Shown here in pieces: positions 12,001 through 15,000 of a stretch of 64,000 bases of DNA (positions within the stretch are counted from its first letter, which is position 1; the number at the start of each line of letters is the position of its first letter). The stretch comes from Escherichia coli (GTDB lineage: Bacteria > Pseudomonadota > Gammaproteobacteria > Enterobacterales > Enterobacteriaceae), in NCBI RefSeq assembly GCF_002854065.1, contig NZ_CP024153.1; one strand, written 5' to 3'. A program made the position numbers.

Positions 12001-15000
12001 AAGGAAGTGTATGAAAAATGTCTGGTATAATAAAGATATCATCTTGAAAATCGAGTGTTGCTCTGTGGATAACTTGCAGGGTTTAATAAGTATCTTTACT
12101 CAAAAGTTGCAATCAATAATTTATTGAAAAAGATTGAAAGGTGGTGGTAAATAATGTTACAATGTGGGAGTATCAGTTTAAATTCTTCGTGAAATAGTGT
12201 TCTTTTAAGCTAATAAAAAATGCACGTGGAATTTAGGTCAAAGAAAAGTAAAGAAAAATTTATTTATGGAGGTAAAAAAGGATGAGTCAAGTTGTTGATT
12301 TTTTAAATGAAGCAAAAACTTTTTATTTTGCAACCGTTGAAGGAGACCAGCCAAGGGTCAGACCGTTTAATGCAGCCATGGAGAGGAATGGCAAGGTCTA
12401 TCTTGGTACAACCAATCAGAAAAAAGTTTATCAGCAGTTATTGGCAAATTCAAAGGTGGAAGTCTCAGGTATGGCAAAAGGAAAATGGATTCGGCTCACC
12501 GGCGAAGCCGTAATTGATGATACCGTGGAAGCAAGGGAAGCAATGCTTGAAGCAAATCCGCCTTTGAGAGATTGGTATAGCGCTGATGATGGGAAATTCA
12601 CCGTATTTTATTTGAAAAACATGCAGGCAGTTTTATATTCCTTTACAGGAGATCCGGAGATATTAGATAATTAATCAAAACATGCAGCCCAGTGGTAGAA
12701 TGAACTGACCCCCATAAGTTAGACCAAAAATCTAACTTATGGGAGGTCATTTTTTATGGCAAAATACAGTTATGAATTTAAGTTACAAGTTGTTCAAGCA
12801 TATTTAGATTTTTATTTTGTCCGTTTTGTCTAGCTTACCGAAAGCCAGACTCAGCAAGAATAAAATTTTTATTGTCTTTCGGTTTTCTAGTGTAACGGAC
12901 AAAACCACTCAAAATAAAAAAGATACAAGAGAGGTCTCTCGTATCTTTTATTCAGCAATCGCGCCCGATTGCTGAACAGATTAATAATAGATTTTAGCTT
13001 TTTATTTGTTGAAAAAAGCTAATCAAATTGTTGTCGGGATCAATTACTGCAAAGTCTCGTTCATCCCACCACTGATCTTTTAATGATGTATTGGGGTGCA
13101 AAATGCCCAAAGGCTTAATATGTTGATATAATTCATCAATTCCCTCTACTTCAATGCGGCAACTAGCAGTACCAGCAATAAACGACTCCGCACCTGTACA
13201 AACCGGTGAATCATTACTACGAGAGCGCCAGCCTTCATCACTTGCCTCCCATAGATGAATCCGAACCTCATTACACATTAGAACTGCGAATCCATCTTCA
13301 TGGTGAACCAAAGTGAAACCTAGTTTATCGCAATAAAAACCTATACTCTTTTTAATATCCCCGACTGGCAATGCCGGGATAGACTATTATTCTCCCCGGA
13401 GCCACTACGCTGACCCGGTTGATTTCAGAGGTAAGGGAAAAGGCGACGTTGCGCCTGTGGAACAAACGGCACTGTTGCAAAGTTAGCGATGAGGCAGCCT
13501 TTTGTCTTATTCAAAGGCCTTACATTTCAAAAACTCTGCTTACCAGGCGCATTTCGCCCAGGGGATCACCATAATAAAATGCTGAGGCCTGGCCTTTGCG
13601 TAGTGCACGCATCACCTCAATACCTTTGATGGTGGCGTAAGCCGTCTTCATGGATTTAAATCCCAGCGTGGCGTTGATTATCCGTTTCAGTTTGCCATGA
13701 TCGCATTCAATCACGTTGTTCCGGTACTTAATCTGTCGGTGTTCAACGTCAGACGGGCACCGGCCTTCGCGTTTTGAGCAGAGCAAGCGCGCGACCATAG
13801 GCGGGCGCTTTATCCGTGTTGATGAATCGTGGGAATCTGCCACTTCTTCACGTTGTTGAGGATTTTACCCAGAAACCGGTATGCAGCTTTGCTGTTACGA
13901 CGGGAGGAGAGATAAAAATCGACAGTGCGGCCCCGGCTGTCGACGGCCCGGTACAGATACGCCCAGCGGCCATTGACCTTCACGTAGGTTTCATCCATGT
14001 GCCACGGGCAAAGATCGGAAGGGTTACGCCAGTACCAGCGCAGCCGTTTTTCCATTTCAGGCGCATAACGCTGAACCCAGCGGTAAATCGTGGAGTGATC
14101 GACATTCACTCCGCGTTCAGCCAGCATCTCCTGCAGCTCACGGTAACTGATGCCGTATTTGCAGTACCAGCGTACGGCCCACAGAATGATGTCACGCTGA
14201 AAATGCCGGCCTTTGAATGGGTTCATGTGCAGCTCCATCAGCAAAAGGGGATGATAAGTTTATCACCACCGACTATTTGCAACAGTGCCTAAAAATCGAC
14301 CATACAGAGAGGGAAACCACCGGAGTGGTGGGAAAAGCAGAAAGGCTCACGTGGCATAAGGCGTGGACAATGGTATCGACTGGTTTTTCAATTTCCTATA
14401 CGTGAACTATTGAAGTAATCAATCAAATTTTATAGGCTGATAGCCAAGTAACAACCACCAATGATATGCCAGGTAAAATCAGGGGACGTAAAATGAGTAC
14501 TCTTGATGTTCAGAAGCTCAAGGATGATGCCGTCGAATGGGCCTTAACTCATGGTGTTGCTTTCAAGGAATCGTCGTATTCCGCAGTGCATACCCCGTTT
14601 ACCCTGACACCAACACCTATCAGCCGTAAATCCTATCAGTACTTAAAGAATGCAACAGGAATACTCAGCAAATTAATCTATTCAGTTTCTGAGGATCATG
14701 ATTTTTTGTACTCTGCGATTTATCCCATCAAGGCCGGGAATGCCTTCTTTTCAGCCCTCCTGAACATGCATCAACAAATCCATTCATCATCAAGGCATGC
14801 TCCTCGATTACCATTACTCATTATGCGTAGCGACTTTATGGATGATAATCGTGATGGGTTCAGGCTTATAGAGTTCAATGGTATAGCTGCAGGAATGGGG
14901 CCGTTTGGTCAGCGGATACATGATCTGCATCACTATCTACAACGGCAATATCCCGCTGTCTTTTCTGATTTATCGAATCAGGCAACAGGGGCGCTTGTCG

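What the first reader, a model, noticed from the sequence alone, without database searches (positions are those of the whole stretch)
13468..14289. IS26 copy with two internal single-base insertions: non-autonomous but structurally intact
This copy is 822 bp rather than 820, with an extra T (GTTTTGAG versus GTTTGAG) and an extra A (GGGAATCTG versus GGGATCTG) compared with the copy at 18421. The transposase frame is split into two ORFs, but both terminal inverted repeats are perfect, so the copy could still be mobilised in trans by the other IS26 copies. Both changes are in short homopolymer runs, so sequencing error must be excluded.
Basis: seen in the sequence. Interest (0 to 1): 0.5.

Follow-up and report, generated by a model that had tools for sequence, protein, structure and literature searches.

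The report
IS26 copy with two extra bases
One of seven IS26 insertion-sequence copies in this multidrug-resistance plasmid region carries two extra bases that break its transposase gene; this is either an uncorrected sequencing error or an ordinary dead copy, and is not a new kind of element.

Summary
Window 13468-14289 is an 822-bp IS26 with perfect 14-bp terminal repeats. It matches the 820-bp copy at 18421-19240 except for an extra T (T4 run, 13772-13775) and an extra A (AA, 13834-13835).

The copy is the IS26-v1 (Tnp26 G184N) allele. As written, tnp26 stops after P132. The 138-aa product keeps the DNA-binding domain and the first catalytic Asp but lacks the second Asp and the Glu.

- **Private to this record:** neither insertion occurs in any other IS26 I could search. 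That covers at least 23,000 places in PLSDB, 21,914 places in 5,426 complete E. coli genomes, 100,044 species genomes and JGI metagenomes.
- **Clean elsewhere:** about 51 kb of the window aligns to close relatives with no internal indels. pBY68-1 has an intact IS26-v1 at the same locus.
- **Position:** both insertions sit 62 bp apart in the centre of a seven-fold repeat, more than 300 bp from unique flanks.

I judge a local consensus or polishing error most likely (about 0.65) and a real private pseudogene next (about 0.3). Only reads or Sanger sequencing can decide.

If real, published experiments show that such a copy is inactive alone. It can still act as a partner, 30-fold less efficiently, in targeted conservative cointegration. 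Interest is low.

The parts
13468..14289 (-). IS26-v1 copy 'C', 822 bp, tnp26 on the minus strand. Identical to the 820-bp copy D apart from two 1-bp insertions.
13468..13481 (+). 14-bp terminal inverted repeat (the right-hand TIR in standard IS26 orientation), perfect
14276..14289 (-). 14-bp terminal inverted repeat (the left-hand TIR, on the tnp26 start side), perfect
13772..13775 (.). T4 run where all other copies have T3. This is the second frameshift in gene order, at codon ~150.
13834..13835 (.). AA where all other copies have a single A. This is the first frameshift in gene order, after P132. It destroys a GATC site and lies 4 nt from the IS26-v1-defining SNP at 13830.
13810..14226 (-). 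Truncated tnp26 from the native ATG: 132 native residues plus TIHQHG and a stop (138 aa). It keeps the TIR-binding N-terminus (M1-P56) and D78 but lacks D138 and E173.
   Evidence: PMC8477213
13520..13843 (-). Downstream ORF of 107 aa whose last ~84 residues are the native Tnp26 C-terminus, including the N184 codon. There is no evidence that it is translated.
14290..18420 (.). 4,131-bp segment bounded by directly oriented copies C and D. It carries a glutathione-synthase-like gene, an IS110-family (IS4321/IS5075-like) transposase gene and a truncated RepE-like gene. The same unit is present in pBY68-1 and tandemly repeated in pCFSA1007-2.
18421..19240 (-). IS26-v1 copy 'D', 820 bp, intact tnp26. 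This is the comparison copy.
3163..3982 (+). Standard IS26 copy 'A' (G184). Three SNPs relative to the v1 copies, no indels.
8588..9407 (+). Standard IS26 copy 'B', followed by a 40-bp duplicated IS26 end at 9408-9447
25277..26096 (+). IS26-v1 copy 'E', identical to D
31293..32112 (+). IS26-v1 copy 'F', identical to D

Best explanation
The element is a full-length copy of IS26-v1, the G184N allele of the IS6/IS26-family insertion sequence. It forms the left boundary of a 4.1-kb IS26-bounded segment inside an IS26-rich multidrug-resistance region of an IncF/IncN-type sil/pco plasmid. The two extra bases are most likely uncorrected consensus or polishing errors confined to this one copy, so the real molecule probably carries an ordinary 820-bp, functional IS26-v1. 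The proposed cause is inferred, not shown. The centre of an 820-bp element present seven times cannot be corrected copy-specifically by short reads or by read tails anchored in unique flanks, so residual indels survive there while the rest of the record is polished clean.
For: (1) The rest of the window is very clean. About 51 kb aligns to close relatives with no internal indel, including 100% identity over 8.8 kb, 6.0 kb and 5.2 kb blocks. The only internal indels in the window are these two.
(2) Both lie within 62 bp, in the central third of the IS, 307 and 455 bp from the unique flanks. That is where copy-specific correction is weakest. A uniform error rate cannot explain them: the 95% upper bound from 0 indels in 51 kb gives P(>=2 in 822 bp) of about 0.001. 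A local cause is therefore needed.
(3) There are no substitutions in the copy or in 2 kb of its right flank relative to pBY68-1: 0 mismatches and 2 gaps over 2,814 aligned columns. Two independent real mutations landing 62 bp apart with nothing else changed is improbable.
(4) Neither insertion, alone or together, is found in any other IS26. All best places are 79/81 in PLSDB (at least 23,034 places) and in 5,426 complete E. coli genomes (21,914 places). There are 0 exact hits in 100,044 species genomes and in JGI metagenomes. The allele therefore shows no sign of inheritance.
(5) Both changes duplicate the neighbouring base, which is the typical form of read-consensus indels.
(6) Indel errors at this very spot do occur in public assemblies. 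In E. coli ECZU25 (BNFS01000003.1), where tetA, tetR, intI1 and Tn3 tnpA are all split, one IS26 has CCC->CCCC and another CCC->CC at the adjacent run.
Against: No reads are available, so this remains an inference. The five other complete copies and three partial copies (about 4.9 kb of IS26 sequence) carry no indel at all. If repeat centres were generally unpolished, some errors elsewhere might be expected. These two sites are not recurrent error hot spots in about 45,000 database copies. The assembly resolves the three linked SNPs that separate IS26 from IS26-v1 copy by copy, which argues for good per-copy consensus. Naturally frameshifted IS26 copies have been reported in comparable arrays (PMC9019673).
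Confidence: 0.62

Rival explanations
1. The insertions are real. Copy C is a recently inactivated IS26-v1 pseudogene private to this plasmid lineage. It makes at most a 138-aa catalytically dead Tnp26 fragment and cannot move by copy-in transposition. It keeps both TIRs and long end identity, so it remains a substrate for RecA-dependent recombination and a poorer partner for the Tnp26-catalysed targeted conservative reaction with the intact copies.
For: The sequence as given shows it. The window is otherwise indel-free over about 51 kb, so the record is not generally error-prone. The other IS26 copies are perfect. A natural single-base frameshift in one IS26 of a 10-copy array has been published (PMC9019673). 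Loss of one of seven copies should cost nothing. Experiments define how such a copy behaves: it is inactive alone and 30-fold reduced but still targeted with an intact partner.
Against: This needs two +1 events 62 bp apart with no other change in the IS or its flank. The allele is absent from every other record searched, including the closest relative pBY68-1, which has an intact copy at the same junctions. Both changes lie in the least correctable part of a repeat.
Confidence: 0.3
2. The insertions are real and arose in one event. They would be error-prone repair of a heteroduplex between co-resident standard IS26 and IS26-v1, formed during Holliday-junction branch migration in the targeted conservative reaction or during homologous recombination. 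The resulting Tnp26(1-132) fragment binds the TIRs and dampens IS26 activity in the array as a trans-acting inhibitor.
For: Standard IS26 and IS26-v1 coexist in the array. The extra A is 4 nt from the v1-defining SNP, and the extra T lies between that SNP and the 613/614 pair. Gene conversion during the conservative reaction is mentioned as an unpublished observation in PMC7885326. The M1-P56 fragment alone binds the TIR, though weakly (PMC8477213).
Against: There is no evidence that the fragment is made or stable. M1-P56 binds only at substantially higher concentrations, and Tnp26 is described as acting preferentially in cis. The allele is not conserved or spread anywhere, which a selected function would predict. 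The link to heteroduplex repair is conjecture.
Confidence: 0.03

Closest known systems
IS26-v1 (IS26 variant encoding Tnp26 G184N; IS6/IS26 family)
   Same: All 820 alignable positions are identical to the three co-resident v1 copies. It has the same 14-bp TIRs and the v1-defining bases at standard positions 459, 613 and 614. It sits in direct orientation with another copy around a resistance-region segment, without target-site duplications, as is usual in IS26 arrays.
   Different: It is 822 bp rather than 820, and tnp26 is split by two +1 insertions after codons 132 and ~150.
Engineered IS26-FS-L / IS26-FS-R frameshift mutants (Harmer, Moran & Hall 2014, PMC4196232; Harmer & Hall 2021, PMC7885326)
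   Same: These are full-length IS26 with intact TIRs and a frameshifted tnp26. By analogy, copy C should show the same behaviour: no cointegrates alone, and targeted conservative cointegrates with an intact IS26 at about 30-fold lower frequency.
   Different: [quoted passage not shown] Here there are two 1-bp insertions in the middle, giving a 138-aa product that retains the DNA-binding domain and the first Asp. Copy C has not been tested.
Naturally frameshifted IS26 copy in the Salmonella MRCP/pOYZ4 array (PMC9019673)
   Same: One copy among about ten IS26/IS26-v1 copies carries a single-base indel that frameshifts tnp26, with no TSDs around the copies.
   Different: That case has a different site (deletion of a T at +376) and a single lesion. 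Here there are two insertions.
Homopolymer indel errors in IS26 copies of long-read-only assemblies, e.g. E. coli ECZU25 BNFS01000003.1
   Same: A 1-bp insertion next to the same GGG/CCC run yields the identical 138-aa truncated protein (GHL28925.1).
   Different: In ECZU25 the change is CCC->CCCC and the whole contig is full of split genes. The present window is otherwise indel-free.

Membership tests
IS26 (IS6/IS26 family insertion sequence) | 14-bp perfect terminal inverted repeats GGCACTGTTGCAAA | tested here: met
   Both ends have 0 mismatches.
IS26 (IS6/IS26 family insertion sequence) | Length of 820 bp | tested here: not met
   The copy is 822 bp because of two 1-bp insertions.
IS26 (IS6/IS26 family insertion sequence) | Single tnp26 ORF of 234 aa with a DDE triad. 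The residues are D78/D138/E173 counting from M1. They are published as D82/D142/E177 in PMC4196232; the +4 offset is my inference from the sequence. | tested here: not met
   The frame is split. The 138-aa product keeps D78 only. The NCBIfam IS6 transposase model matches positions 1-121 on one ORF and 144-202 on the other.
IS26 (IS6/IS26 family insertion sequence) | Nucleotide identity to reference IS26 | tested here: met
   820/820 aligned positions are identical to co-resident IS26-v1 copies, with 3 SNPs to the standard IS26 copies.
IS26 (IS6/IS26 family insertion sequence) | 8-bp target-site duplication (expected only after copy-in insertion of a single IS) | tested here: not met
   The flanks are GAACAAAC and TAAAAATC. 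No copy in the window has a TSD, as is usual for arrays built by conservative or homologous events.
IS26-v1 allele | A at standard position 459 and AA at 613-614 (codon 184 AAC = Asn) | tested here: met
   Copy C carries the same bases as D, E and F. A, B and the partial copy at 1-619 carry G and GG. The link of G184N to IS26-v1 is stated in PMC9019673.
Non-autonomous IS that can still be acted on by transposase from another copy | Intact TIRs plus at least ~117-184 bp of end identity to an active partner | tested here: met
   There are 307 bp and 455 bp of uninterrupted identity from the two ends. The threshold comes from PMC7885326.
Non-autonomous IS that can still be acted on by transposase from another copy | Demonstrated movement when transposase is supplied by another copy | not testable with these tools
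   This needs a cointegration assay. The literature shows only reduced targeted conservative reaction and a cis preference of Tnp26.
Sequencing or assembly artefact | Reads disagree with the consensus at 13772-13775 and 13834-13835 | not testable with these tools
   No reads are available. The indirect evidence is summarised under Best explanation.

The most novel reading that the evidence does not exclude
The two insertions are real and arose together during repair of an IS26/IS26-v1 heteroduplex formed by Tnp26-mediated conservative recombination. The 138-aa TIR-binding but catalytically dead Tnp26 fragment would then act as a trans inhibitor that stabilises the resistance array.
Probability: 0.03. 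Interest if true: 0.45.

Novelty: already known. Interest (0 to 1): 0.08.

Why it matters
It matters little. At most it affects annotation, pseudogene versus intact transposase, at one of seven IS26 copies. It also affects predictions of which IS26 can excise or mobilise the adjacent 4.1-kb segment.

If the insertions are real, this copy is a natural counterpart of the laboratory IS26-FS mutants. It could be used to ask whether Tnp26 from neighbouring copies acts in trans in a native array.

If they are an artefact, it is a reminder that the centres of multi-copy IS elements are where consensus errors survive in otherwise clean plasmid assemblies.

Tried and rejected
- **Looking for the allele elsewhere.** An 81-bp probe over both insertions against PLSDB and all complete RefSeq E. 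coli genomes gave only 79/81 matches. Exact 76-bp scans of 100,044 species-representative genomes and of JGI metagenomes gave 0 hits.
- **Exact-protein look-up.** The 138-aa product exists as GHL28925.1. Its DNA (L006) shows a different mutation (CCC->CCCC) in an error-ridden assembly, so it is not an independent sighting. The 92-aa C-terminal form is recorded on one 98,181-bp NCBI contig, probably the source of the window, but that contig could not be retrieved.
- **A generally noisy assembly.** Rejected: no internal indels in about 51 kb aligned to relatives.
- **Frame restoration.** Rejected: two +1 insertions give a net +2 shift, all three frames contain stops, and an A4/T4 run is too short for slippage (established knowledge).
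- **A known length variant of IS26.** None turned up in the databases or in the papers read.
- **Target-site duplications or reciprocal flank matches among the copies.** None found.

Full report
**Observation**

The IS26 terminal repeat GGCACTGTTGCAAA occurs 15 times in the window, against 0.03 expected by chance. These sites define:
- six complete copies: A 3163-3982, B 8588-9407, C 13468-14289, D 18421-19240, E 25277-26096 and F 31293-32112;
- a copy cut by the window start (1-619);
- a 40-bp end remnant (9408-9447);
- a 142-bp end fragment (21003-21144).

Copy C is 822 bp. A global alignment to D shows only two differences, both single-base insertions:
- T3->T4 at 13772-13775;
- A->AA at 13834-13835.

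Both 14-bp terminal repeats are perfect. tnp26 lies on the minus strand and is split into two ORFs, 13810-14244 (144 aa from TTG, 138 aa from the native ATG at 14226) and 13520-13843 (107 aa). D gives a single ORF.

Only the T insertion lengthens a homopolymer. The A insertion duplicates a lone A beside a GGG run and destroys a GATC site.

**What the element is**

Translated in standard orientation, copies C, D, E and F carry Asn at residue 184. Their DNA has A at position 459 and AA at 613-614. Copies A, B and the partial copy at 1-619 carry Gly184. C is therefore the IS26-v1 allele, the G184N variant reported to have increased activity (Pong et al. 2019, as cited in PMC9019673).

In gene order, the first insertion falls after P132 and the second near codon 150. 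The product from the native start is 132 native residues plus TIHQHG and a stop. It contains the N-terminal disordered and helix-turn-helix region (M1-P56) that recognises the terminal repeat (PMC8477213). It also contains the first catalytic Asp (D78). It lacks D138 and E173.

PMC4196232 publishes these residues as D82, D142 and E177. The +4 offset is my inference from counting the sequence.

NCBIfam's IS6 transposase model matches positions 1-121 on the first ORF and 144-202 on the second. All three frames contain stops, so nothing restores the frame.

**Context**

- To the left of C lie a truncated intI1, dfrA12, an aadA-family gene, a PNPOx-family ORF and bleO.
- To the right lies a 4,131-bp segment, 14290-18420. 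It carries a glutathione-synthase-like gene, an IS110-family (IS4321/IS5075-like) transposase gene and a truncated RepE-like gene.
- The segment ends at copy D, which is in direct orientation with C.
- The same bleO-IS26-segment-IS26 arrangement occurs in E. coli pBY68-1 (NZ_CP090213.1), with an intact 705-bp tnp26 at the position of copy C.
- In Salmonella pCFSA1007-2 the segment is tandemly repeated, as expected of an IS26 translocatable unit.
- No copy has a target-site duplication.
- The rest of the window is an oqxAB module between E and F, followed by a sil/pco IncF-type backbone.

**Real or artefact?**

I could not see reads, so the argument is indirect. There are four lines of evidence.

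1. The record is otherwise clean. These blocks align to relatives with no internal indel, about 51 kb in all:
   - 620-9447, at 100% identity;
   - 19241-25276, at 100% identity;
   - 26097-31292, at 100% identity;
   - 32113-53885;
   - 54062-60043;
   - 14290-16280;
   - 17626-19240.

   Against pBY68-1, the stretch 13467-16280 shows 0 mismatches and exactly the two gaps.
2. A uniform error rate cannot account for two indels in one 822-bp element. The 95% upper bound from 0 indels in 51 kb gives P of about 0.001. Whatever produced them was local.
3. The allele is private.
   - An 81-bp probe over both sites found only 79/81 matches in PLSDB (at least 23,034 places) and in 5,426 complete E. 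coli genomes (21,914 places).
   - Neither insertion therefore occurs even singly in those records.
   - Exact scans of 100,044 species genomes and of JGI metagenomes found nothing.
4. Both insertions lie 62 bp apart in the central third of the IS, 307 and 455 bp from the unique flanks. There are no accompanying substitutions.

Two independent natural mutations would rarely cluster like this. A local failure of consensus or polishing naturally does, because the middle of a seven-copy 820-bp repeat is the part that reads anchored in unique sequence reach least. This last step is inference from general practice, not a result.

Public assemblies do contain indel errors at this spot. In E. coli ECZU25 (BNFS01000003.1), a contig with tetA, tetR, intI1 and Tn3 tnpA all split, one IS26 has CCC->CCCC at the adjacent run. 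That yields the identical 138-aa protein GHL28925.1. Another IS26 in the same contig has CCC->CC.

Four points count against artefact:
- the other roughly 4.9 kb of IS26 sequence in the window has no indel;
- the assembly resolves IS26 from IS26-v1 copy by copy;
- the two sites are not recurrent error sites in the databases;
- a natural frameshifted IS26 copy has been published (PMC9019673).

I put artefact at about 0.62 and a real private pseudogene at about 0.3.

**How it would work if real**

Frameshifted IS26 and D/D/E-to-Leu mutants form no cointegrates with an IS-free target. With an intact IS26 in the partner molecule, they still form targeted conservative cointegrates at about 30-fold lower frequency. 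When both partners are frameshifted, nothing is recovered (PMC4196232).

End identity of 117-184 bp suffices for that reaction (PMC7885326), and copy C has 307 and 455 bp. Tnp26 is described as binding preferentially in cis. In Tn4352B, inactivating the left-hand tnp26 abolished excision of the translocatable unit even though the right-hand copy was intact (PMC4676283).

'Mobilised in trans' is therefore only partly justified. Copy C could be a passive partner for conservative recombination and for RecA-dependent recombination. Copy-in transposition driven by neighbouring copies has not been shown.

**Comparison with what is known, and novelty**

The element passes the sequence tests for IS26-v1 (terminal repeats, identity, allele-defining bases). 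It fails on length and on an intact DDE transposase gene. It is a defective, or mis-sequenced, member of a very well known family.

Its closest functional analogues are the engineered IS26-FS mutants and the natural frameshifted copy in the Salmonella MRCP array.

Nothing suggests a new kind of element. The most novel reading still open is a single-event heteroduplex-repair origin, with the truncated TIR-binding fragment acting as an inhibitor. It rests on one fact: the extra A sits 4 nt from the v1-defining SNP and the extra T lies between the polymorphic sites. I give it about 3%.

**Verdict**

- Observation: confirmed.
- Interpretation: partly supported.
- Most likely cause: an assembly artefact in an ordinary IS26-v1; otherwise an ordinary dead copy.
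- Interest: 0.08.

Noticed in passing
window 9408-9447: A 40-bp duplicate of the IS26 right-hand end directly abuts complete copy B (8588-9407). The IS26 terminus therefore occurs twice, 40 bp apart. This may be a remnant of a truncated IS26 next to which a complete copy was incorporated.
   Followed up: partly
window 21003-21144: An isolated 142-bp IS26 end fragment, identical to the IS26 terminus, in the same orientation as copies C and D.
   Followed up: partly
window 1-619, 3163-3982, 8588-9407 versus 13468-14289, 18421-19240, 25277-26096, 31293-32112: Two IS26 alleles coexist in one array. Standard IS26 (Gly184) forms the three left-most copies and IS26-v1 (Asn184) the four others. This suggests the two halves of the resistance region were assembled from different sources.
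   Followed up: partly
window 16281-17625: This stretch differs from pBY68-1 and pCFSA1007-2, which have about 425 bp here. The window carries an IS110-family (IS4321/IS5075-like) transposase gene at 16347-17351. Salmonella p270k has an IS4321-family gene at the same place.
   Followed up: partly
window 17739-18467 (-): A RepE-like 'replication initiation protein' ORF whose start codon and first ~15 codons lie inside IS26 copy D. It is a truncated rep gene given a hybrid N-terminus by the IS. Public records annotate it as an intact protein (WP_152921961.1).
   Followed up: partly
window 26097-31292: An oqxA-oqxB-Rrf2 regulator module bounded by directly oriented IS26-v1 copies E and F. It is 100% identical over 5,196 bp to many Salmonella and E. 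coli plasmids.
   Followed up: partly
window 13830-13835: The extra A lies 4 nt from the SNP that distinguishes IS26-v1 from IS26 (T at 13830). It converts GGGATCTG to GGGAATCTG and so removes a GATC (Dam) site. Methylation-motif miscalls are a known nanopore error class (from memory, not tested).
   Followed up: no
L006 (E. coli ECZU25, BNFS01000003.1) 661-1478 and 9938-10758: Two IS26 copies in this public contig carry homopolymer-length changes (CCC->CCCC; CCC->CC plus T5->T4). Many neighbouring genes (tetA, tetR, intI1, Tn3 tnpA) are split, which indicates an unpolished long-read assembly. One change yields exactly the same 138-aa protein as copy C.
   Followed up: yes
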